From the IMG/VR virus record IMGVR_UViG_3300006903_000012: 64,000 nucleotides of DNA, one strand, 5' to 3'. This DNA is from a virus. Position 1 is the first letter of the stretch. Each line of letters begins with the position of its first letter. Under the pieces are notes generated by a model. That model worked only from the letters and a program-made list of their open reading frames with translations, had not been told where the DNA came from and searched no databases. Below, piece by piece: positions 1-56,511 of the stretch. Made by a program: the position numbers and the translations under genes.

Positions 1-377
1 CTTGTCACATCGGCATCAGATGCTTTATATGGATCAGGTCTCTTTTGTCTCATCTTCCCGGCATGTGTTCCTTGATCGTGCTTGCCGGGAAAGTGCTTTT
101 CCGATAACGATTTCTGATTCTGCTTAGCAACAAATGCTAACAATTCATCAGGATCAATTTCTATTTCTCCGCCACCGAAATTATGTGCGCCAAGATGCGC
201 TTCTGGAATCGATTTCTCGTGCTTGAAATACTCGACTTCAGCCAGACGCTTTGTGGCCCAGTCTTTACTAGGTCCGCAACCTAGATTTCTTTTTCCGTCT
301 TCACTAACCACACACCACTGATTGCCTTTTTTCTTAATCCGCTTTTCAACCAACTCGCTGATTACAAAGTCGGCCAT
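1..377 (-). CDS. virion-module protein; only the N-terminal ~125 codons are present because the gene runs off the left window edge
   Basis: Hand translation. The ATG at 375-377 overlaps the stop of the portal fusion by 16 nt and the frame stays open to coordinate 1 (MADFVISELVEKRIKKKGNQW...). It is missing from the ORF track because it has no stop in the window. It carries KHFPGKHDQGTHAG. Confidence 0.65.
   Translation of the reverse strand, partial: MADFVISELVEKRIKKKGNQWCVVSEDGKRNLGCGPSKDWATKRLAEVEYFKHEKSIPEAHLGAHNFGGGEIEIDPDELLAFVAKQNQKSLSEKHFPGKHDQGTHAGKMRQKRPDPYKASDADVT
57..98 (-). repeat. His-rich linker motif copy (KHFPGKHDQGTHAG)
   Basis: Direct translation of the minus strand. One of 8 copies of K-H-x-[PA]-G-x-H-[DN]-Q-x-x-H-[AG]-[GR]. 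Confidence 0.9.
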
Positions 378-3300
378 GTTTTGTCATCCTCAATTCGTCC
401 TAAAATTTCATAATGTTGCCGACCTACTGGCCGAGCTTGAATTTTTTGCAGCCAATTTTCTAAGGCTTGATTTGAATTGAACGCCATCACATCTGTTATT
501 TTTGTAACCGGATCGCCAGCGTTATCAACTTCTTCTTTGACACGCACCGTTCGTCCGTCTATTTGTAAATTCTTCAGTCGCTTTAATTTCTCAAAATTTC
601 CACGATTGAAGAAATTCAAATCCGGCGGGCGTCCATCATCTGGATCATGTACACCAGAATAACCAGTGCCAGTATAGAACGCTTTCTGCTCTAGCTCAGA
701 ATATTTAGAATCATATTCATCCATCCACATTCTCAAAGACAGATGATTAATACTATTAACATGAACACTTTGATCTGGTAAATCTACATCATCAAAATAA
801 AAATAACCTTTGCCTTTAACAAGTTCTGTTTTCGTCCTGCCCGTAACCTTCAGTGCTCGATTAACTTGAGCAACTGTTTTAGGAGTTTTACTGAAATCCA
901 TTCCTGATTCTTTTTCCAAATTTCCTGCATGAGTCTTCTGATCGTGTTTGCCAGCTTGGTGTTTAACTAAAATCTCATACCCATCTTTTTGTAACTGTCG
1001 CGCCGCTTGTTTCAACTCACCTTCAACAATAAGACTCTTAACAACTATTGGCAACTCATCATCGAAATCATATTTCCCATTATTACTCTTTACGACTGAT
1101 CGAACTAATGCCGGCATCTCAGGTTTGTAATATTCAAACCCATAATGCAGCACCATGTCTAAAAAGTCTTCATAGTAACGCTTCAAGTTCTCGTCATTGA
1201 CCGATTGTAGATCTTCTGTCTTAGCCCGGTCTTTGATAAACTGCTCAAATTCTTTTCGATATTGTCCGGGGATTTTTTCAGCATAGCTATCAAATCCCAA
1301 AAGTGATTTTTCAGTCTTGGAATTACCAAAAAGATAAAACTCTTTTTCATTTCCCAGATACAACCACACCCCAAACACATCCCATGTTACTGCTAATTCT
1401 TTCTCAGCCCCCATTGAAGTTAACTGGTTATCTGAAACTGTTACATGGGGTTTATATCCGCCCGCTTCCCACGTTCGATCTGGTGCCTGCCCATTCGACA
1501 ACAAACCCGCCACCAAATCATCATGTAGATGTTTTAGGGCGGGTGTGATTTTGACTTCTGCCACAGACACTTCTTGCAGGGTTATTATAGTGCCGGTCAG
1601 GTTGAGTGTCAAGGATTTTTGATCGTATTCAGAACACACTTTTTCGATAGTTTTTCTTATCGCCAGTGAGTCAAAATACCGATCCATTTTTCCTAAGTAA
1701 ACTAGTGTGATATGTGGCTCAGACTTTTTGAAATCTAACAGGTTAACTATCTCATTCGGGACCGATAGAGCAATCATACAGGTATCATCATGCTCAGCTT
1801 TTTCTTCAACTATCTTCGACCCTTTGATTCCCTTAGCTCCAAAAATCTTGGCTCGGCCCGCTCGGATATCATCTATCGGCAAATCACCTACATCCACCAA
1901 AGCCGCTTCAACATACTCATCGGCATCGGTGCCCCATACAATTCCTGCATAAGCATAATTGCCGCCGAGCACATCTATCTCACTGTCACTAATTACCGGC
2001 ACCAGACTATATTGTTGTAGATAATGCTGCGCATCGGCTACACTATCAAACCGAGACCGCTTACCAATTTGATCGGGCTGACCCCATGAATTCATGGGAA
2101 GAGATTTTTCTTTAATGGTTGTGCGATATGTTTTGTCGCCTTCTGGATCCTTCCAATCTGAAACAACCTTAACCTTTGTATTGCCTGGAACACCGAAATA
2201 CTCAAGTCCACTCAAAGCTGATTTTAGATTCTGATAGGCCCGATCTTCATTATTTCCAGCTCCCATCTGACCAAAGGCTGAACCGATCCACGGATCACCT
2301 CCCTCGGTATCTACTAGAACAAGCCGAACTGCTCGATTAAATGCCGCCTGTGATAACTCGGCACTATATGCAAGCTCATGGTGACTTGTATCATTCTCAA
2401 TCTGGCGACCCGCATACCACTTTCCATCTACTTTAATTAATAAAAGATTGAGATGTTTCTTAATTTCAGACTTTGTCGGGTGCCAGAACTTGTCTCGTTG
2501 ATAGCTCCCGGGACCAAGCTCTGAGTAATATGACACACTGGGTTTACTAAATTTGTGCTCAACCGCAGGTTTACCAATATCTTCTGGCACAGGAGTAGAA
2601 GAAAGAGCGCCGGCATGCTTTTTCTGATTATGCTTTCCCGGTTGGTGTTTCTCAACTGCTTTCTTATTTTCAGCAATAATTCGTTGCGTCTCTTGTTCCA
2701 GAATTTCTTTCAGCTTCGCATTCGACTCATCACCGTTCCAATAATGTCCGCCATCTTTCAAAAAGTCTTCGAATTCTTTTGGGTTCGACTGCAAGTTGCA
2801 ATGGCAAGTCATGGGATGCGCCGGTGGATGTTGTGTTGTCTCACCGTCGAACACCGTTTCATACTCAAAGTCTAAAGGCACAAATCCTTGCTCTTCATTT
2901 TGAGTACAAATATCACACACATCGTACCCACGCGTGATCCAACCTTTAGTCTTCAATCCCACTGCTGTCATTTGATCTAGAGTCGCCCGAGAATCAGCCC
3001 AATTCAATTCCGTATTTACAATTGAACGAATGCGCGACTCACTTAACTTACCAGCATCTTTCTTAAATTTCAAACCAAAAAGATTCGCCTGGATATAATC
3101 GACAATTTCTTCGCTGCTCAAACCATTATCATAACCAGTCAAAATATTTTGCCGAAGGAAATATTTTGTTCCACTATCGACATGCTGAACTAATGTGGCT
3201 GCTCGTGCATCTAACAGATCAATCACCGACGGATTAGTCAGAATGAACTGAAATTCTTTTGGTAACGTCAGTCGATCAGCCAAACCCGCTTCAAACATTT

Positions 3301-5438
3301 GCTGCTGAATATCTTGAACAGCCGTCAGAGAGCCTTCAGAATATGCTTGCCGCAAAATATCTAACAACTGATCTTGAATATCAGGCAGACAATACCAATC
3401 TTGCTCATTTAGAATATCGTCGAGTTTTTCAGATGCGGTAATTTCCGCTTTTTCTATTAAATCAATTTTAGATTTTTCTTCATGGTTAATATTCCATTCC
3501 CAGATCTTTCCAGTTTTTGTTTCAGATATGATCTTACCCCCAAGAGCTTCGTTCATTGAATTTGGCCGAATATTACCATGCTCAACATAAGCTCTAACAG
3601 AGTTAATACCCGACGATGCAAGTAACTTAAATATAGCATTTGCTGTTTCTTTTCCAAATCCAGAACCAGAACGTGACGAATCTATTCGATTGAAGTAGGC
3701 ATAATCACGATCATTATTGGGTAACTCTACTGTTGCAGTTACTACTATATCATCTTTAGGAAGTGCATTTTCTAACCAATTTTCTTTTCTTAACCTATCG
3801 TTTATTTTAGCATCAAAGAAGAGCCTGTCGCCGGATTGAGTAACAGTTATGTCTAACCTATCTGTGTGAATTTTACTGGGAATATTATCTTTTTTACCAT
3901 ACTCACCAGCATGTGATTCTTGATCGTGCTTGCCGGGGAGGTGTTTTTGTATTTCGTTATCTAACTCAACCAAACTTTTATACTCTTCAAGCGGCGCAAC
4001 TAATTCTTCCAAATGCTCAATAGTTAACTGATTACCGACTTGCTTAAAAGACTCTTGCAGTAATTTGCTAAACTTCTTAACTGTCTCACTTGAGTTTCTT
4101 AATTGCTTGCCGTCCGCTAACAAATCTTCCGCCAGCGATTTAGCATATTGTTGCATCTCGCTGTAAGCACTGTCTATTTGATCGAGAGCTTCAGGTTTGT
4201 TAGCATCTTCTTGCAGGCCACCGATCGCTTCAGTATCTTGATCGATAGAATCCAGACTATCACTAGGGAAACTATCCATACCTTCAAGCCCCGGAGCCGC
4301 TGGTAACCCGCTTGTTTTCACGTCAATAATTTTCCACGCCTCAGCTTGTTTCTGAGCATCAATCGGTTTCAAGATCGGTTGATTACCAGTCAAAGTCATT
4401 AGCATCGTTGCACGTTTACCAGCCAGATCTGCTTGCACACTCGTCTCGCCGGTCATATCAATTTTGAACTTGAACTTGAACCCAGATGCAGTCGACATCA
4501 GAATCTTTGTATTAATGAGATCCTCGACTAATTGAGCATAGAAACCAGTGCCCGCTCGCGACGATACTTTTGAAGACGCTTCCACACCCGCCAATGTACG
4601 ATCATGCTCAAAGATTCGCAAATCGCCAATTGACAATCCAAACGCAGCACACACCATTTCAGCAAAACGTTTGAAATTCTCAATCATATTCACATCAGCC
4701 GGCGAAAGAGTTAATGGAATAAATCTCGCCGGCTTTGTGTGATCGTACAACAGTGGCATTTTCATGGGATCAATGTCATTCCACATTTCGCGGAAACCTG
4801 TTGCCCATGCGATTGCTTCTGCTTCAGACATATCCATAACATCCAAAATCCCAGCCATCGGTGTGTTACCCAATTGCTTGAGATAATAAAGATAGATGCG
4901 CGAGAGAGCTTCAATCGATAAAAATGCACTTTCAACTGGCGCTTCTTGAAATACTTTGCGAGTCAAATCAGTTCGTGGTTGAGTAATCAAACGAATCACA
5001 TCGCCACGACCAAAATAAACTCGATCTAATCCATTATAGGGATTGATCTGTACAAACGGAATGTCGCGATCATAGGTGGGGTATAATGTTTCACCATCAA
5101 TATGATAGAGACCACCAATGATTCCGTCCATTTCAGGATTCGCCACAACTTCAGCATTTCCCGCAATGGGGAGAATTAGAGCATCTTGCAGCATGCGCGA
5201 CAACCATACGTCCCAACCATCACCATCATCTGCATCCGCCAGAACTTTCTCGAGATACATTTTCATCTCGCCTTGTTCTTCTGGCTTATCACTAACTATT
5301 TCCCATTCCAAAGATACAAGTTCGCGCAAGATATGCCGAATACAAAGCTTTGTAATCGGCTCCGTCGCAACTTGATACTTCCACTGAGCTACCGACAAGC
5401 GAGTTGGGTTAGCTAAATAAAGCGGTTGCAATTTGTTA
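362..5438 (-). CDS. portal protein fused to MuF-like, GNAT-like, repeated-module and 2H-phosphoesterase-like domains (exon 2 of a split gene)
   Basis: Continuous 1689-codon ORF. The N-terminal ~380 aa look portal-like. Downstream lies an SPP1 gp7/Mu F-like head-morphogenesis domain ending in HPMTCHCNL. There is no ATG or SD at the track start (TTG 5431); see the intron and exon 1 features. Confidence 0.8.
923..964 (-). repeat. His-rich linker motif copy (KHQAGKHDQKTHAG)
   Basis: Direct translation. Confidence 0.9.
1325..1785 (-). other. 2H phosphoesterase (LigT-like) domain inside the portal fusion
   Basis: Two H-x-T/S-x motifs at typical spacing: EPHITLVYLG and YKPHVTVSD. Confidence 0.55.
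2100..2540 (-). other. repeated ~130-aa module (copy in the portal fusion)
   Basis: ...KWYAGRQ...HHELAYSA...VRLVLV...AYQNLKSALSGLEYFGVP...TTIKEKSL aligns by eye with three segments of ORF 8085-10835. Confidence 0.5.
2609..2650 (-). repeat. His-rich linker motif copy (KHQPGKHNQKKHAG)
   Basis: Direct translation. Confidence 0.9.
2790..3260 (-). other. Mu F / SPP1 gp7-like minor head protein domain
   Basis: ...SRIRSIVNTELNWADSRA...GWITRGYDVCDICTQNE...HPPAHPMTCHCNL resembles the family, including the C-terminal HPxCxC-type motif. Confidence 0.65.
3490..3860 (-). other. possible GNAT-type acetyltransferase domain
   Basis: RSGSGFGKETANAIFKLL...VRAYVEHGNIRPNSMNEALGG resembles the GNAT motif A (R/Q-x-x-G-x-G/A) and the downstream N...S...G segment. 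Confidence 0.35.
3905..3946 (-). repeat. His-rich linker motif copy (KHLPGKHDQESHAG)
   Basis: Direct translation. Confidence 0.9.
4310..5438 (-). other. portal domain
   Basis: Size, position at the head-module start, and general portal-like pattern (...EPITKLCIRHILRELVSLEWEIV..., ...ILDVMDMSEAEAIAW...). The family was not verified. Confidence 0.55.
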
Positions 5439-5699
5439 CAAAGTCTTACAGACCTTTGAGTAAGTCATTTCTGCTCACTTCTTGCAATTCCTATTTCTTG
5501 CAAGTTCAGACTATATCATTATCTTTCTTCAAGATAGTTCCCACATAGTCGTTACACACTTCCGCAGATGCGGGTTGGCTCGGTATTTGGACTCTCACCA
5601 TTCACCGAATTCGAGAACTGTTACAACATCCATTACTGGATGAAGCCGCCAAGTTGACGGGTTAAGTAGGGGGGCGGTTGCTGTATACTCGTCGGCGCA
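5439..5699 (-). mobile_element. ORF-less group I intron (~261 nt) in the portal gene
   Basis: On the minus strand: R-like GUGUAACGACUAUGUGGG (5540-5557), and S-like GAUAUAGUC (5509-5517) pairing with it as P7. P3 is CCUAC (5666-5670) with GUGGG. A GNRA hairpin lies at 5627-5642, P8 at 5520-5536, P9 at 5481-5504. P1 is GUCGGU/GCCGAC (5691-5705) with U.G at the splice site. The terminal G is at 5439. Splicing restores the frame. Confidence 0.7.
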
Positions 5700-5731
5700 A
5701 CCGACTTCTGTACAATAAGTTCATCTGCCAT
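5700..5731 (-). CDS. portal gene exon 1 (MADELIVQKS + 2 nt)
   Basis: The ATG at 5729-5731 lies 8 nt after AGGAG (5740-5744). The 32 nt end in GU and join to U at 5438 to give V-NKLQPLYLANP in frame. Confidence 0.6.
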
Positions 5732-6593
5732 CAATATTTCTCCTGAGAAATAATTTCTCAACCCGAGCAACTTGCTCTTTTGTGTTCTTCAAAAGTTTTG
5801 TATCCCAAATCACAATAACCTTATACCCTGCATCTTTATATGCTTGAATTCTTTTCTTATCTCTTGGATTATCTTTCGCATGCCAGTAGACACCAAAAAG
5901 CTCAACAATTATTTTCTTATTGGTATTTACAAAATCTGGGTTAAACCTATTTACCCAAAATGCACCGTTACCCACATATCTAAAACCAAATCGCTTTAGA
6001 TATCTCATCAGAAGTTTTTCTGGTTTATTTGGACTTCTAGGTTCTAATCGTTTCTCAATAACTGCATCTTTCTCACTATCTGACAAACCATCCCAATATT
6101 TTCTGAGTGATTTAGAAAGTTTATCTGACCTGAGTTGCTTAGCTTTCCTTGGTGTACGCAACCAAGTTTCGGTAACAGATTGCGAAATCTTTTTAGCTAT
6201 TTCTTGTTCTTCCTCGGCAGTTCGTCTTTTGTGTACTCGCTTAATCGCTTTCGACAAACTTTTACGAAATTCAGCATCACGCTCAGGAGTAAAGTTTCTT
6301 CTGGCTTCCGCTGATTTCCTACCAATTCGTTGTCTTTCTTCTATCGGTACCTTAGCATGTCTTTTCTTTTGAATCCTTGAAATTCGAGCACAAACTTCGG
6401 CAGAGTATTTATTGCCCTTGTTGGGCGATGGTCGACCCAAATTCTGGACAGACAGCAGAAACTTAGTCTCATCACTCATCACTCGACCGTTGTGATGATT
6501 GATAAATCGTCTTCCAAAATTCGCTCGTTCACCACATCCACATAGACACAACGGTCCTTTTTTAGATTTAGACTTTTGTTTTCGGCCTGCCAT
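5721..6593 (-). CDS. free-standing homing endonuclease, Vsr-like PD-(D/E)xK nuclease C-terminal domain
   Basis: N-terminal CLCGCGERANF...HHNGR Zn-finger-like motif, then basic helical repeats. The C-terminus FNPDFVNTNKKIIVELFGVYWHAKDN...VIVIWD resembles the Vsr / EDxHD-type endonuclease core. The stop lies inside portal exon 1. Confidence 0.65.
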   Translation of the reverse strand: MAGRKQKSKSKKGPLCLCGCGERANFGRRFINHHNGRVMSDETKFLLSVQNLGRPSPNKGNKYSAEVCARISRIQKKRHAKVPIEERQRIGRKSAEARRNFTPERDAEFRKSLSKAIKRVHKRRTAEEEQEIAKKISQSVTETWLRTPRKAKQLRSDKLSKSLRKYWDGLSDSEKDAVIEKRLEPRSPNKPEKLLMRYLKRFGFRYVGNGAFWVNRFNPDFVNTNKKIIVELFGVYWHAKDNPRDKKRIQAYKDAGYKVIVIWDTKLLKNTKEQVARVEKLFLRRNIDGR

Positions 6594-6622
6594 AATAGAC
6601 TAATCTCTTTTCACCAATAAAT

Positions 6623-7075
6623 TTATACCGGCAGAATCGCCACAATTTTTACTCTAAATGTATCTTCACTAATTGTCTGAGTCACGGTAAATCTAGTCCG
6701 TCGACTAGCACCCCGAAGTGTCAAGGTCGCTGAAGAAGCAAACATCGCAACCCCAGCCACATCCCATCGCAATAAAAATTCATCATCAACCTGTGATCGG
6801 TGCACTAATTCTTTCGACCAATCTGTATAACTATATGTAATTTCTTCAGGTTCAGAGTCTTCGACAGAAACACTATGTGATCGAAATAATTTTGTAGTTG
6901 AATCGACTAACGCAGAATTTGCAGATCCAGATAAAGCTGCAAATAAGTTAGGATAATTCTTTCTAACCTGGGCCGCATGTTGACCTAAATCCATCAGCGC
7001 TTCATCATAAGCCACTTCACCCGAAAAGACTTTCTCTAAAGCTGCTAACACCGCATCTAATTCTTTATTTGCCAT
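6623..7075 (-). CDS. hypothetical protein (head module)
   Basis: 150-aa minus-strand ORF between polyvalent genes. No motif recognised. Confidence 0.6.
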   Translation of the reverse strand: MANKELDAVLAALEKVFSGEVAYDEALMDLGQHAAQVRKNYPNLFAALSGSANSALVDSTTKLFRSHSVSVEDSEPEEITYSYTDWSKELVHRSQVDDEFLLRWDVAGVAMFASSATLTLRGASRRTRFTVTQTISEDTFRVKIVAILPV

Positions 7076-7104
7076 ATAATATTTTCTCGATTCAATCTAT
7101 CGTC

Positions 7105-22067: not shown

Positions 22068-22141
22068 AGCACCAAGCGGGACTCGAACCCACAATCTACA
22101 AATTAGAAGTTTGTCGATCTATCCAGTTGATCTATTGGTGC
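22068..22141 (-). tRNA. tRNA-Arg (anticodon UCU)
   Basis: Hand-folded cloverleaf: acceptor GCACCAA/UUGGUGC, D arm GAUC-AACUGGAUA-GAUC, anticodon arm ACAAA-CUUCUAA-UUUGU, T arm GUGGG-UUCGAGU-CCCGC. 74 nt. Confidence 0.85.
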
Positions 22142-29223: not shown

Positions 29224-30255
29224 TTATCCTAATAAATCAACCAACAAAACAGCCGTTTCCATAAACTTTTCCAGGTCAGCATCGCTCCCAACAGTAATCC
29301 GTATCAGATCACTTAAAGGTAATCCGTGACTGCCCAATGTCCGAATTAGAATTCCTTTCGATTCCAAAAACCTAGCGATGGAGAGCGCAGATCGGGGTTT
29401 GGTATCATACACCATAAAATTTCCAGCATGTGAAACGAATCTCAAGAAGGGCAGCTTTTCTTCAATCTGCGCTTCCCATTTGTCCCGCATCTCTAATGTT
29501 TCGGAAACAACAACTCTAGAGTGATTCTCCTTGACCGCTTCCTCAGCAAGCAATAGACTCGGCTCTGAAATCCCCCATGGCAGCCGGAGCTTCTTAAAGA
29601 TTATAGCTAAAGCCGGATGGCTGATTGTGTAGCCCACACGAATACCCGGAAGCCCATAGGCTTTAGAAAAAGAATAAATGTAAACCAAGTTTGGATACTT
29701 CATCGGATCCAAAAGCGGCCCCGGATTATCTGAAAATTCATAGTAAGCCCGATCTACTGCTATCACCCGATCACCATCTAAAAGTTTTTCCAGATCATAG
29801 GTATAAGGTAAGGGGTTATTAGGATCACAAAGAAATAACAGTTGATCACCAGCATAGATCTCATAGGGTAAATCAGATGATTGGTATTCATTTACGGTAT
29901 AACCATTAAGATCCGCTCGCAGCTTATACATCGAAAACGTAGGAACTACCACGCCCACACTATGATATTCTTGAACACAGATCGAGCGAATCAGGACATC
30001 TATACATTCGGTCGCGCCCACCATCGCTGTACACATCTCAGGAGCCGATGGGTAAAGTAAAGACTCCAGATGCTTTGGCGAGCGAGGGTACTCATTATAA
30101 GACTGATATAGAACGTCGGCCAGAGAATTATTTTCAACAAATGACTCATTCGCCATCAGACGAAGTCCATCAACCTGCTGATGAGATGTATCATAGCTGG
30201 TACCTGACACTACCCACTCAGGTAACTCCGATATAATGTCATCAATTCCAGGCAT
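29224..30255 (-). CDS. class I/II PLP-dependent aminotransferase (HisC-like)
   Basis: YSFSKAYGLPGIRVGY is the PLP-lysine motif of histidinol-phosphate-type aminotransferases. Size is 343 aa. The start overlaps the queC stop by 14 nt. Confidence 0.75.
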   Translation of the reverse strand: MPGIDDIISELPEWVVSGTSYDTSHQQVDGLRLMANESFVENNSLADVLYQSYNEYPRSPKHLESLLYPSAPEMCTAMVGATECIDVLIRSICVQEYHSVGVVVPTFSMYKLRADLNGYTVNEYQSSDLPYEIYAGDQLLFLCDPNNPLPYTYDLEKLLDGDRVIAVDRAYYEFSDNPGPLLDPMKYPNLVYIYSFSKAYGLPGIRVGYTISHPALAIIFKKLRLPWGISEPSLLLAEEAVKENHSRVVVSETLEMRDKWEAQIEEKLPFLRFVSHAGNFMVYDTKPRSALSIARFLESKGILIRTLGSHGLPLSDLIRITVGSDADLEKFMETAVLLVDLLG

Positions 30256-55212: not shown

Positions 55213-56511
55213 TTATTGTTGCAAAGAAACTGACGGGGGTGGCATATAAATTACATTTGGATCAAATACCACACCAATAACACCATTCCCGCTGGCAACT
55301 ACGTTCTTGGAAAGAACTTGTCCAGTTAAACTCCAATCACCATTGCCGATCAATTCTAATGTAGAATTCGGGTTATAAATAGTTCCTTCAACAACCCAAC
55401 TCGCATTTCCAGACAATGAGATACCTTGAGTATTGGTCATTCCTAGATAAAAAGCCACACCCAAGTAATGACACGGTGAAGCTGTATCTTCAGAGATGCC
55501 AGTACAAGAATTTCTAGTAGCGGACGGAGCCTTAATTGTAACCTGGCCACCCTGTAAATCGACCTTACCATAAGGCACGTACAAAGTCACACCTACACCA
55601 GAAATAGAACTGCTATTTCCAACGAGATTAATAACATTATTGCCAGTATCCATGATGCAATACAATCCTGGCAACAAAGTTAAATTACCGTGAGCGCTCA
55701 GACTCCCGTAAGTTCCAGGAATAATCGTTCCGCTTTGGGGCGATGTTCCCGGTCCCGCAGCACAATCCGGTAGAGCTAAATCGGCCAATGGGTCAATTTG
55801 AATTTGTTGTGCACCAGTTGTTGGAACTGGATCAACATTACTGCCGTAAGCATGCGAGGTCGCAACAACACTGATCCCATAAGCAGGGTCTGCATGAATC
55901 GTAGCATTGTTACCGTTTGTGTCTAGAACATCATTGCCGCCAGTACACTGAGAGCCGTTTGAATTAGCAAAAATACCTCCACCAGTTGTTGCAATTCCTG
56001 AAGTTTGGGGATTACCGCCACCGTTCGACTGCACAATTCCGCAACCTGTCTTGTCCAATGCCACAATCGCATTTCCACTAACCGGTGAGCCACCTGGTCG
56101 TGCAAACGAAACTGCTGTTACAGTCACCTGCACTGGACCCTTATAAACCAAATGAATTAGTACAGTTTTGAGTGTCTCTGTGATTGTAACTTGAAAATAA
56201 TTAGGATTGCCAATATAAGCACCACTAATCGGTGGATGACTATAGGTGACAACATTATTTGTACCGTTGTTATCAAAATCATTTTGAGCTGCGTTTGTCA
56301 AAGCCGCTGACTGCAAAGTCGCATCTGCTGCAACACCAGTCATATACTGATAGGCCGCCGCCAAAGCTGCATTATCGGCCGCTGATTGTGCGCGGCGTTG
56401 TTCTGTGTAAAGATTTCCACCATCGAATGCTAATCCGGCGAACCCCAATAATGCGATCAACGCAACGGCCATAATGATGATCGCTTGCCCCCGTTGGTTG
56501 TTCTTAGTCAT
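55213..56511 (-). CDS. TadG/TadE-like (Flp pilus assembly) N-terminal domain protein with G/T/N-rich beta-rich body
   Basis: The N-terminus QRGQAIIIMAVALIALLGFAGLAFDGGNLYTEQRRAQSAADNAALAAA matches the Tad (TadE/G-like) membrane-anchor domain pattern. Confidence 0.6.
   Translation of the reverse strand: MTKNNQRGQAIIIMAVALIALLGFAGLAFDGGNLYTEQRRAQSAADNAALAAAYQYMTGVAADATLQSAALTNAAQNDFDNNGTNNVVTYSHPPISGAYIGNPNYFQVTITETLKTVLIHLVYKGPVQVTVTAVSFARPGGSPVSGNAIVALDKTGCGIVQSNGGGNPQTSGIATTGGGIFANSNGSQCTGGNDVLDTNGNNATIHADPAYGISVVATSHAYGSNVDPVPTTGAQQIQIDPLADLALPDCAAGPGTSPQSGTIIPGTYGSLSAHGNLTLLPGLYCIMDTGNNVINLVGNSSSISGVGVTLYVPYGKVDLQGGQVTIKAPSATRNSCTGISEDTASPCHYLGVAFYLGMTNTQGISLSGNASWVVEGTIYNPNSTLELIGNGDWSLTGQVLSKNVVASGNGVIGVVFDPNVIYMPPPSVSLQQ

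What the first reader, a model, noticed from the sequence alone, without database searches (positions are those of the whole stretch)
5439..6593. Compact ORF-less group I intron splits the portal gene, with a free-standing Vsr-fold homing endonuclease butted against exon 1
Seen in the sequence:
1. The ORF track starts the 1689-codon portal fusion at a TTG (5429-5431). There is no Shine-Dalgarno in front of it and no ATG for 55 codons.
2. About 290 nt upstream carry no ORF and are visibly more G+C-rich and hairpin-rich than the surroundings.
3. On the minus strand this stretch contains GUGUAACGACUAUGUGGG (5540-5557) and GAUAUAGUC (5509-5517). These resemble the conserved R and S core elements of group I introns, and GACUAU/AUAGUC pair as P7.
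4. Other helices fall in canonical order. CCUAC (5666-5670) pairs with GUGGG as P3. CAUCCA-GUAA-UGGAUG (5627-5642, GNRA loop) lies in the P4-P6 region. UAUCUU-GAAGA-AAGAUA (5520-5536) is P8. CUUGCAA...UUGCAAG (5481-5504) is P9. Two more 3' hairpins follow, and the element ends in G at 5439.
5. An ATG (5729-5731) lies 8 nt after a strong AGGAG (5740-5744). The 32 nt from this ATG end in GUCGGU (5700-5705). That hexamer pairs with GCCGAC (5691-5696) as a P1 helix with a U.G pair exactly at the proposed 5' splice site.
6. Ligating 5700 to 5438 restores the frame: MADELIVQKS-V-NKLQPLYLANPTRL...

Established knowledge: the R/S/P7 core, and the U.G plus terminal-G rules for group I introns.

Inference: a ~261-nt ORF-less group I intron interrupts the portal gene. 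The 290-aa ORF 5721-6593 has a Zn-finger-like N-terminus, basic repeats and a C-terminal NPDF...IVELFGVYWH Vsr/PD-(D/E)xK core, as in EDxHD-type homing endonucleases. It stops inside exon 1, so it is outside the intron but touching it. This resembles the collaborative-homing layouts described for cyanophage psbA and T7-like polymerase introns. Splicing would gate expression of the portal and of a 1.7-kaa effector fusion.
Basis: partly seen in the sequence, partly recalled or inferred. Interest (0 to 1): 0.8.

Follow-up and report, generated by a model that had tools for sequence, protein, structure and literature searches.

The report
Portal-gene group I intron with neighbouring nuclease

Summary
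The intron is real. Rfam's group I model scores 54.7 bits (cut-off 50) at 5666-5487 on the minus strand. My secondary structure is supported by covariation across 60 distinct related introns.

Intron-less portal homologs read ...PPYITR|QPLYI.NPT..., which fixes exon 1 at 5731-5657 (25 codons). The intron is 5656-5429 (228 nt, not 261). Its last base, G5429, is the G of the false 'TTG start'.

The 290-aa ORF (6593-5721) is a Vsr-like/EDxHD nuclease:
- Its closest solved structure is I-Bth0305I.
- The E, D, H and D catalytic residues are present.
- It sits between two genes that are adjacent or nearly so in relatives.

The nuclease gene and the intron occur together in two diverged lineages (the window and contig L003). 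Both are absent from six related lineages, and no lineage has only one of them. This layout matches 'collaborative homing' as described for cyanophage S-PM2 psbA/F-CphI. Cleavage specificity and splicing are untested.

Verdict: a new member of a known kind, of moderate interest.

The parts
5740..5744 (-). Shine-Dalgarno AGGAG, 8 nt upstream of the true portal start codon. It lies inside the 3' end of the endonuclease ORF.
   Evidence: Read directly from the sequence.
5657..5731 (-). Portal exon 1: ATG plus 24 codons, MADELIVQKSVAPTSIQQPPPYLTR. It ends in ...ACCCGU.
   Evidence: The first 25 aa of intron-less homologs P0015, P0016 and P0018 are MAENTIIEKAARPTSIQHAPAYITR, MAEEQIVEKSAQPVSIQHAPAYLTR and MATVDIVEKAATPVSIQQPPPYITR. 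The best-scoring splice models all use 5657. Rfam aligns U5657 to its conserved P1 U.G pair.
5429..5656 (-). ORF-less group I intron, 228 nt. Helices, given as 5' strand/3' strand:
- P1: 5660-5656/5650-5646, with the U5657.G5649 wobble
- P2: 5642-5637/5632-5627 (GUAA loop)
- P3: 5619-5612/5543-5536
- P4: 5608-5603/5585-5580
- P5: 5600-5598/5590-5588
- P6: 5579-5578/5557-5556
- P6a: 5573-5570/5565-5562
- P7: 5550-5546/5513-5509
- P8: 5535-5531/5525-5521
- P9: 5504-5498/5487-5481
- P9.1: 5479-5474/5464-5459 (loop CAGAAAUGA)
- P9.2: 5457-5450/5446-5440
- tail GUAACAAAUUG: 5439-5429
- terminal (omega) G: 5429
   Evidence: Rfam RF00028 scores 54.7 bits. My model R1 finds 85 related introns. In them 92.2% of cells are paired and 55 of 59 pairs show compensatory changes. 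The covariation score is 0.536, against at most 0.071 when partners are slid. P7 is about 100% paired. Across the distinct sequences, U(-1) is present in 44/52, its G partner in 45/52, the terminal G in 44/58 and the UAACA tail in 52-54/60. The homologous intron in L003 is at the same site.
362..5428 (-). Portal exon 2 (1,688 codons plus stop), starting CAA CCG = QPLYLANPT. The mature protein is 1,713 aa. It has an N-terminal portal domain and a long C-terminal extension carrying a 2'-5' RNA ligase-superfamily domain.
   Evidence: Pfam Phage_portal and 2_5_RNA_ligase2. An exhaustive search found 249 homologs, and the close ones align query residue 1 to their residue 26.
5721..6593 (-). Free-standing homing-endonuclease gene (290 aa). 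It has an N-terminal CxCxC cluster, a helical NUMOD-like middle region and a C-terminal Vsr-like/EDxHD nuclease domain (E192, D220, H238, D245). Its stop codon overlaps the portal ATG by 11 nt.
   Evidence: Pfam DUF559 at 4e-8, Vsr at 3e-5 and NUMOD3 at 1e-3. The best PDB sequence hit is 3R3P, I-Bth0305I. The predicted fold best matches 3R3P with TM 0.73, then 1VSR. E192 and P219-D220-F221 are invariant in 11 homologs. The gene is absent from the same position in six related lineages.
6623..7075 (-). Conserved 150-aa gene flanking the endonuclease gene. In L011, L012/13 and L014 its ortholog ends about 10 nt before the portal ATG. In L199 two small genes lie between it and the portal.
   Evidence: blastp 2e-23 to 3e-18 against the genes directly upstream of the portal in L014, L011 and L012. 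tblastn against L199 and L202.

Best explanation
The portal gene of this roughly 112-kb uncultivated phage is split after codon 25 by a 228-nt ORF-less group I intron (5656-5429, minus strand).

How it would work:
1. Transcription from the late operon gives a pre-mRNA in which exon 1 carries the ribosome-binding site and the ATG.
2. The intron folds into the P1-P9.2 architecture.
3. An external guanosine attacks after U5657, which is held in the P1 U.G wobble by the guide sequence GGCGG.
4. The terminal G5429 then docks, and exon 2 (CAA...) replaces the intron's own CAA on the guide (P10).
5. The exons are ligated to ...ACCCGU|CAACCG..., giving the full-length portal.
6. Without splicing, translation stops 7 codons into the intron, at the UAA in the P2 loop. 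Virion assembly therefore depends on splicing.

Immediately upstream is a free-standing EDxHD (Vsr-like) homing-endonuclease gene. It is inserted between the portal and the 150-aa gene that directly precedes the portal in several relatives.

The most likely mobility mechanism is collaborative (trans) homing:
- The enzyme cuts intron-less, endonuclease-less portal alleles at or near the intron insertion site during co-infection.
- Repair from the donor copies the endonuclease gene, the 75-bp exon 1 and the intron as one unit.
- The intron (or flanking sequence changes) protects the donor from self-cleavage.

Shown here: the intron, its boundaries and structure, the nuclease family, the presence/absence polymorphism and the co-occurrence.
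Inferred: splicing activity, endonuclease activity, its target, and the intron's protective role.
For: Intron:
- Rfam scores above the gathering cut-off in both the window and L003.
- Strong covariation across 60 distinct class members.
- Conserved U.G pair, terminal G and UAACA tail.

Boundaries:
- An exon-2-only search returned homologs whose residue 26 aligns to exon-2 residue 1. Their first 25 residues match exon 1.
- The best splice model is 5657/5429.
- P10 (CAA/UUG) mimics the P1 extension (read from the sequence).

Endonuclease:
- 3R3P (I-Bth0305I) is the best match by both sequence and predicted fold.
- The E-D-x-H-D residues defined in PMC3239194 are present.

Insertion polymorphism and linkage:
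- Six related lineages (L001, L011, L012/13, L014, L199-201, L202) have neither the endonuclease gene nor the intron.
- The window and L003 have both, although they are diverged. Endonuclease identity is about 50% at the protein level. Intron identity is about 75% over the BLAST-alignable core. The first 50 nt of exon 1 are 52% identical.
- The two share identical sequence for 12 nt on each side of the insertion site.

Precedent: the collaborative-homing mechanism is described in PMC3984707 and PMC6083498.
Against: - There is no RNA evidence of splicing and no biochemical evidence of cleavage.
- The co-occurrence rests on only two positive lineages. L003 is a 1.1-kb contig, so nothing is known beyond its first 6 exon-2 codons.
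- The identical exon flanks could reflect the pairing needs of P1 and P10 rather than co-conversion.
- Free-standing phage endonucleases often cut hundreds of bp from their own gene, in either neighbouring gene. The target therefore need not be the intron insertion site.
- The NUMOD3 match is just below Pfam's cut-off (19.5 against 20.4 bits), and the N-terminal 60 residues of the model have low confidence.
Confidence: 0.6

Rival explanations
1. Independent neighbours, with hitch-hiking. The endonuclease is an ordinary free-standing ('intron-less homing') element whose target lies elsewhere. That target could be in the upstream 150-aa gene, at the old junction between the upstream gene and the portal, or further into the portal gene. 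The intron is carried along only because it lies within the co-conversion tract, as T4 MobE mobilises the defunct I-TevIII intron. The intron plays no protective role.
For: Distant homologs of this endonuclease are free-standing with no intron nearby. The T4 mobE trans-homing precedent is in PMC2790892. The gene's own insertion already disrupts the junction between the upstream gene and the portal.
Against: Perfect co-occurrence in two diverged lineages, with no endonuclease-only or intron-only allele among eight lineages. The distance from the gene to the insertion site is only 64-75 bp. This rival still predicts co-mobility, so it differs only in target position and in whether the intron protects.
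Confidence: 0.28
2. Relics. The intron still splices and is inherited vertically, but the endonuclease is inactive or has been recruited for another job (for example a repair nuclease or excluding competing phages). In that case the pair is no longer mobile.
For: No activity data exist. The 'x' position of the motif is Phe rather than Asn or His. Two family members (P0009, P0011) have lost the WH motif, which shows that decay does occur in this family.
Against: The ORF is intact at 290 aa, with E192, D220, H238 and D245 all present, and the L003 copy is equally intact at 50% identity. The patchy distribution among close relatives is what an active selfish element would show. In exon 1 the host portals of the window and L003 are no closer to each other than to intron-less alleles.
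Confidence: 0.09
3. The intron is 5699-5439 (261 nt), P1 is GUCGGU/GCCGAC, and the product is MADELIVQKSV|NKLQPLY...
For: The hairpin exists with a U.G pair at its end, and the joint keeps the reading frame.
Against: - This model would delete 14 residues (APTSIQQPPPYLTR) that are conserved in every close homolog, and it would add NKL, which none of them has.
- It ranks 27th of 55 models.
- The hairpin is absent from L003 exon 1.
- Rfam and the family alignment place P1 and the U.G pair at 5657 and the terminal G at 5429.
Confidence: 0.01
4. No splicing. The portal is translated from the TTG at 5431, and the upstream stretch is a dead intron remnant or a leader.
For: Gene callers chose this start (P0014).
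Against: There is no ribosome-binding site before the TTG. Exon 1 is an intact 25-codon ORF with its own AGGAG, it matches homolog N-termini, and it is conserved in L003. All core helices are intact and the Rfam score is above the cut-off.
Confidence: 0.02

Closest known systems
Cyanophage S-PM2 psbA group I intron with the adjacent free-standing endonuclease F-CphI (collaborative homing; Zeng, Bonocora and Shub 2009, as described in PMC6083498 and PMC3984707)
   Same: [quoted passage not shown] A free-standing homing-endonuclease gene lies directly next to the interrupted gene. The two are optional relative to related phages.
   Different: F-CphI uses an Endo VII-type catalytic motif, whereas this enzyme is Vsr-like/EDxHD. 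The host gene there is psbA and here it is the portal. For F-CphI, cleavage of the intron-less allele and protection by the intron were demonstrated. Here neither has been tested.
I-Bth0305I, the intron-encoded EDxHD endonuclease of Bacillus phage 0305phi8-36 recA (PDB 3R3P; PMC3239194)
   Same: It is the closest solved structure by sequence (E 3e-4) and by predicted fold (TM 0.73). It shares the E/D/H/D catalytic residues. It has the same architecture: an N-terminal NUMOD-like helical DNA-binding region and a C-terminal Vsr-like nuclease domain. It is associated with a phage group I intron.
   Different: I-Bth0305I is encoded inside its intron (in P5), whereas this gene lies outside, 64-75 bp upstream of the insertion site. 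Identity is only about 25% over about 100 residues. The 'x' position is Phe here and Asn there. An N-terminal Cys cluster is present here.
Phage T4 MobE / I-TevIII trans homing, and Hef-type free-standing Vsr-like endonucleases of T4-related phages (PMC2790892; Hef is cited in PMC3239194)
   Same: A free-standing endonuclease gene between conserved genes mobilises a neighbouring intron that has no working endonuclease of its own. Hef shows that free-standing members of the Vsr-like family exist.
   Different: MobE is an HNH enzyme, and the nrdB intron carries a decayed endonuclease ORF, whereas this intron is ORF-less. Homology to Hef was not tested here.
Compact (about 206 nt) group I introns with stand-alone endonucleases in Jug jumbo gut phages (PMC12880540)
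   Same: Small ORF-less group I introns interrupt essential late genes (terL, nrdD; the portal is reported as fragmented), with many stand-alone endonuclease genes nearby. Splicing was confirmed by metatranscriptomes for about half of the predicted introns in three genomes.
   Different: Those are 360-402 kb Bacteroides-type phages with about 18 introns per genome. This window has a single intron in 64 kb. Sequence relatedness between the introns was not tested.

Membership tests
Group I intron (Rfam RF00028) | Covariance-model score at or above the curated gathering threshold | tested here: met
   54.7 bits against 50, covering model positions 1-253 in full. The L003 homolog scores 51.9 bits.
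Group I intron (Rfam RF00028) | Conserved core helices P3-P9, including the P3/P7 pseudoknot, supported by covariation | tested here: met
   Eleven helices, 92.2% of cells paired, and 55 of 59 pairs with compensatory changes. The covariation score is 0.536, against at most 0.071 for slid controls and 0/500 shuffles. P7 is about 100% paired. Caveat: the alignment was fitted to my model.
Group I intron (Rfam RF00028) | U.G wobble at the 5' splice site in P1, and a terminal G at the 3' end | tested here: met
   U5657.G5649 and G5429. In the family alignment, U is present in 44/52, its partner G in 45/52 and the terminal G in 44/58. Rfam aligns U5657 to its conserved U.
Group I intron (Rfam RF00028) | Removal restores a reading frame colinear with intron-less homologs | tested here: met
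   YLTR|QPLYLANPT compared with YLTRQPLYITNPT (P0016) and YITRQPLYIANPT (P0018).
Group I intron (Rfam RF00028) | Guanosine-dependent self-splicing | not testable with these tools
   Needs in vitro transcription and splicing, or RNA-seq.
EDxHD (Vsr-like) homing endonucleases | Composite catalytic motif equivalent to I-Bth0305I E170, D196, x208, H213 and D222 | tested here: met
   E192 (KPE), D220 (NPDF), F233 (the x position), H238 (YWH) and D245 (PRD). E192 and D220 are invariant in 11 homologs. H238 is present in 9 of 11.
EDxHD (Vsr-like) homing endonucleases | Vsr-like nuclease fold | tested here: met
   The AlphaFold model has pLDDT of mostly 80-96 over the C-terminal domain (residues ~190-280; one 10-residue block at 78). 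Foldseek top hits are 3R3P (TM 0.73-0.74, probability 1.0), then 1VSR and 3HRL. This is a predicted structure, not a solved one.
EDxHD (Vsr-like) homing endonucleases | N-terminal NUMOD-type DNA-binding modules | tested here: inconclusive
   Pfam NUMOD3 scores 19.5 bits, just under its 20.4 cut-off. The model shows a long helical repeat region at 65-183 of moderate confidence.
EDxHD (Vsr-like) homing endonucleases | Site-specific cleavage of alleles that lack the element | not testable with these tools
   Needs a cleavage assay.
Collaborative (trans) homing pair | The intron lacks an endonuclease ORF | tested here: met
   The intron is 228 nt. The exon-1 frame stops after 7 codons, and only short mechanical antisense ORFs overlap it.
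Collaborative (trans) homing pair | A free-standing endonuclease gene adjacent to the intron-containing gene, optional relative to related genomes, and co-occurring with the intron | tested here: met
   The gene ends 64 nt upstream of the insertion site. Both elements are present in the window and L003. Both are absent in L001, L011, L012/13, L014, L199-201 and L202.
Collaborative (trans) homing pair | The endonuclease cuts the intron-less allele at or near the intron insertion site | not testable with these tools
   No I-Bth0305I-like TTxG-N6-CxAA site was found near the junction, but specificity in this family is set by the variable N-terminal domain.
Collaborative (trans) homing pair | The intron protects the donor genome from cleavage | not testable with these tools
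   Needs a cleavage assay on intron-plus and intron-minus substrates.

The most novel reading that the evidence does not exclude
The endonuclease gene and the intron form one co-mobile 'split' homing cassette. An EDxHD enzyme would cut the intron-less portal allele at the insertion site, and the intron would shield the donor. This would be a further natural case of collaborative homing, using a third endonuclease family in a virion structural gene. The same intron class also has a member (L067) that carries a Vsr-like endonuclease ORF inside the intron. Together these would be 'before' and 'after' stages of the proposed pathway by which free-standing endonucleases invade ORF-less introns to create mobile introns.
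Probability: 0.4. Interest if true: 0.55.

Novelty: new member of a known kind. Interest (0 to 1): 0.4.

Why it matters
Annotation: gene callers start this portal at a false TTG and lose its first 25 residues. The same error probably affects many phage structural genes in metagenomes. The related intron class turned up in 64 IMG/VR contigs, next to genes for capsid, terminase, protease, scaffold and tail proteins.

Biology: expression of the portal, and therefore virion assembly, would depend on RNA self-splicing.

Evolution: if the endonuclease targets the insertion site, this adds an independent case of collaborative homing with a different nuclease family, conserved in two diverged phages. 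Only a few such cases have been characterised. That would strengthen the proposed route by which mobile group I introns arise.

It does not reveal a new kind of system.

Tried and rejected
1. GenBank phages. A blastn of 5000-7100 and tblastn of the portal N-terminus and of the endonuclease found no match. There is no annotated relative.
2. IMG/VR scan with portal peptides: nothing found.
It was too loose for that collection. None of the 80 loci returned contains the intron by model R1, so no further intron-plus alleles were obtained.
4. The word-indexed protein search found only one portal homolog. The exhaustive search was needed.
5. Both lie in exon 1 according to the homolog alignment. The CCUAC/GUGGG pairing is also possible in L003, but the family alignment supports the internal P3.
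6. A 3' splice site at G5453 (a 204-nt intron). It is in frame and gives 'TR|SV', like the distant homolog P0001. It was rejected for three reasons: G5453 lies inside the covarying P9.2 stem, the conserved GUAACA tail would fall in the exon, and all close homologs read TR|QP with no insertion.
7. A search for the I-Bth0305I-type target consensus near the junction found none.
8. Literature searches for a previously described portal-gene group I intron found no explicit case apart from the fragmented portal genes of Jug phages.
9. The intron subgroup (IA, IC and so on) could not be assigned. The core sequence resembles T4 td-type R/S elements (from memory), but there is no P7.1/P7.2 between P7 and P3'.
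Full report
**1. What is in the sequence**

All genes in this part of the window are on the minus strand. The mechanical ORF list starts the 1,689-codon portal ORF at the TTG at 5431-5429. No ribosome-binding site precedes that TTG. Upstream lie about 290 nt with no sizeable sense-strand ORF. Further upstream is an ATG at 5731, 8 nt after AGGAG (5744-5740). A 290-aa ORF (6593-5721) has a TGA stop that overlaps this ATG by 11 nt.

Other ORFs in the window encode a large terminase, a family-A DNA polymerase, a DnaB-type helicase, a clamp loader and a UvrD helicase. There is one tRNA-Arg gene. An identical copy of the endonuclease protein is on record from contigs of about 112 kb in public assemblies. 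This is therefore an uncultivated tailed phage. It has no relative in GenBank phage records at the DNA or protein level.

**2. The intron is real**

Rfam's group I intron model (RF00028) matches 5666-5487 on the minus strand. The score is 54.7 bits against a gathering score of 50, E = 4e-11 for the whole window, and the full model is covered. The predicted fold of 5670-5429 is more stable than shuffled sequence (z = -2.8).

I wrote a full secondary structure (P1, P2, P3-P9, P9.1, P9.2) and built covariance model R1 from it. R1 found 85 matches, 60 of them distinct. On that alignment:
- 92.2% of cells form standard pairs.
- 55 of 59 pairs show changes on both sides.
- The covariation score is 0.536, against at most 0.071 when the 3' partners are slid by 1-3 columns. 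No shuffle out of 500 reached it.
- P7, which a covariance model cannot hold alongside P3, is about 100% paired.

The alignment was fitted to my structure, which inflates the percentage paired. The number and variety of compensatory pairs is still far beyond the controls.

**3.

The only close homolog from the word-indexed search was P0001, from a colinear gene on contig L001. It begins MAETALVEKAAPKPRAIQTPAVYITRSV..., which matches the window's unspliced reading MADELIVQKSVAPTSIQQPPPYLTR well beyond position 5700.

I enumerated all 55 in-frame models with a U before the 5' site and a G before the 3' site, and scored each against P0001. The best model was 5657/5429.

For an unbiased test I searched the exhaustive library with exon 2 only (from 5428). 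It returned 249 homologs. The closest (55-62% identity) align query residue 1 to their own residue 23-28, most of them to residue 26. Their preceding residues match exon 1:
- P0015: MAENTIIEKAARPTSIQHAPAYITR|QPLFITNPT
- P0016: MAEEQIVEKSAQPVSIQHAPAYLTR|QPLYITNPT
- P0018: MATVDIVEKAATPVSIQQPPPYITR|QPLYIANPT
- window: MADELIVQKSVAPTSIQQPPPYLTR|QPLYLANPT

Given the U and G rules, only one junction gives this product. Exon 1 is 5731-5657, the intron is 5656-5429 (228 nt), and exon 2 starts at 5428. The G of the supposed TTG start is the intron's terminal G.

The RNA evidence agrees:
- Rfam aligns U5657 to the conserved U of its P1 U.G pair.
- In the family alignment that column is U in 44/52 sequences and its partner is G in 45/52.
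- The column of G5429 is G in 44/58.
- The preceding UAACA is present in 52-54 of 60, and conservation collapses immediately afterwards.
- Exon 2 begins CAA, as does the intron. It can therefore replace the intron's CAA on the guide sequence UUG, giving P10 (read from the sequence).

P7, P8 and P9 were assigned correctly.

**4. A second, diverged copy of the whole arrangement**

The closest homolog of the 290-aa protein (P0003, about 50% identity) lies on a 1.1-kb metagenome contig, L003. Directly after it come:
- a portal exon 1 (MAEEIIIEKAAHPVSIQRAPPYITR);
- a 216-nt group I intron at the same codon boundary (Rfam 51.9 bits, R1 160 bits);
- exon 2, starting CAACCGCTTTATATTACG.

The two introns are about 75% identical over the BLAST-alignable core. 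They differ by compensatory changes in P2, P3, P5, P8, P9, P9.1 and P9.2. The first 50 nt of exon 1 are only 52% identical. In contrast, the 12 nt on each side of the insertion site are identical, including the synonymous codon choices ACC-CGT|CAA. Intron-less alleles have ACA-AGA-CAG, ACG-AGG-CAG or ACT-CGT-CAG there. This fits either a co-conversion tract or selection for P1/P10 pairing.

**5. The 290-aa ORF is a free-standing EDxHD/Vsr-like homing endonuclease**

- Pfam gives DUF559 (4e-8, above its cut-off), Vsr (3e-5) and NUMOD3 (1e-3, just below its cut-off).
- PHROGs gives 'endonuclease' and 'homing endonuclease' families.
- The best solved-structure match by sequence is 3R3P, the catalytic domain of I-Bth0305I (E 3e-4).
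- An AlphaFold model (pLDDT mostly 80-96 over the C-terminal domain, one block at 78) matches 3R3P best by fold (TM 0.73-0.74), followed by E. coli Vsr.
- The family-defining residues given in PMC3239194 (E170, D196, x208, H213 and D222 of I-Bth0305I) correspond to E192, D220, F233, H238 and D245 here.
- E192 and the PDF motif are invariant in 11 homologs.

The gene is an insertion. The 150-aa gene upstream of it (7075-6623) is the ortholog of the gene that ends about 10 nt before the portal ATG in L011, L012/13 and L014 (blastp 2e-23 to 3e-18). In L199 that ortholog lies further upstream, with two small genes between it and the portal.

**6. Linkage of the endonuclease gene and the intron**

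Eight lineages of this portal clade were inspected at the DNA level. Two carry both elements (the window and L003). Six carry neither (L001, L011, L012/13, L014, L199-201, L202). None carries only one. R1 and tblastn confirm the absences.

In exon 1, the window and L003 are no more alike in protein sequence than each is to intron-less alleles. A patchy distribution on diverged backbones is what lateral spread of a cassette would produce, although repeated loss is not excluded.

More distant homologs of the endonuclease are free-standing with no intron nearby.

**7. Mechanism**

The best-supported reading is a self-splicing intron on which portal expression depends. Unspliced RNA would give a 32-aa peptide that ends at the UAA in the P2 loop. 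The intron would be partnered with a neighbouring endonuclease in collaborative or trans homing, as defined for S-PM2 psbA/F-CphI and reviewed in PMC3984707.

The endonuclease gene ends only 64 nt from the insertion site. Any double-strand break in or near the portal 5' region of a naive genome, repaired from this donor, would therefore copy both elements.

What remains inferred:
- that the intron splices;
- that the enzyme is active;
- that it cuts at the insertion site rather than elsewhere (the hitch-hiking rival, as with T4 MobE; PMC2790892);
- that the intron protects the donor.

**8. Comparison with what is known, and novelty**

- ORF-less phage group I introns next to free-standing endonucleases are established (PMC3984707, PMC6083498).
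- EDxHD enzymes are known, both intron-encoded and free-standing (PMC3239194).
- Compact introns of about 206 nt with stand-alone endonucleases interrupting late genes are reported at scale in Jug phages, where the portal gene is among those fragmented (PMC12880540).
- The intron class is itself widespread. One core pattern recovered 64 IMG/VR contigs. The flanking ORFs there encode capsid, terminase, prohead protease, scaffold and tail proteins, along with DUF559/Vsr, LAGLIDADG, GIY-YIG and HNH nucleases.

What is new here is the specific combination of a portal host gene, an EDxHD free-standing partner, and conservation of the pair in two diverged phages. I found no explicit earlier description of this combination. 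I class it as a new member of a known kind, with interest 0.4.

Noticed in passing
window 5465-5473 (minus strand), and the same position in L003 and L015-L078: The 9-nt terminal loop of P9.1, CAGAAAUGA, is identical in the window, L003 and 45 of 68 pattern matches of the same intron class. The stem beneath it covaries freely (6 of 6 pairs compensatory). An invariant loop of this size suggests a tertiary contact or a protein-binding site. No partner was identified.
   Followed up: partly
L067:37-981 (IMGVR_UViG_3300035698_010038): An intron of the same class carries a Vsr-like endonuclease ORF (ATG 342 to TGA 979-981, motif FVDGEHWH) inside the intron, after P9.1. Its stop overlaps the conserved GUAACAAACUG 3' tail. 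This is the intron-encoded counterpart of the free-standing arrangement in the window.
   Followed up: partly
L029:1116-5116 (IMGVR_UViG_3300037067_001909); also L025/L039, L047, L055: Some viral contigs carry many copies of this intron class close together. R1 gives 8 hits within 4 kb in L029, 5 in L025/L039, 5 in L047 and 4 in L055. In L029 a DUF559/Vsr-like ORF (1766-2341, minus strand) lies between two of them. The interrupted genes were not identified.
   Followed up: no
window 362-4000 (minus strand): The portal protein has a C-terminal extension of about 1,200 aa beyond the portal domain. The only recognisable domain there is 2'-5' RNA ligase superfamily (residues 1234-1335 of the annotated ORF). 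Homolog lengths range from 505 to 1,689 aa, so the extension is variable. Upstream genes in relatives encode toxin-like domains (ART-PolyVal, ADPrib_exo_Tox, InPase).
   Followed up: partly
window 5691-5705 (minus strand): A perfect 6-bp hairpin, GUCGGU-UGC-GCCGAC, lies inside portal exon 1. It is not conserved in L003 exon 1, and its function, if any, is unknown.
   Followed up: yes
window 22068-22141 (minus strand): A single tRNA-Arg (anticodon TCT) gene (Rfam 65.2 bits; ARAGORN).
   Followed up: no
window 55213-56511 and 29224-30255 (minus strand): Unusual phage cargo: an ORF with a TadE/G-like Flp pilus-assembly N-terminal domain (E 2.5e-11) and a class I/II aminotransferase (E 4e-22).
   Followed up: no
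window 6530-6548 (minus strand), endonuclease residues 16-21: The N-terminal Cys cluster CLCGCG, followed by HH at 33-34, recurs in distant homologs P0007 and P0013 (consensus CxCxCG). It may be a small zinc-binding module, which the I-Bth0305I paper does not describe. The model has low confidence in this region.
   Followed up: no
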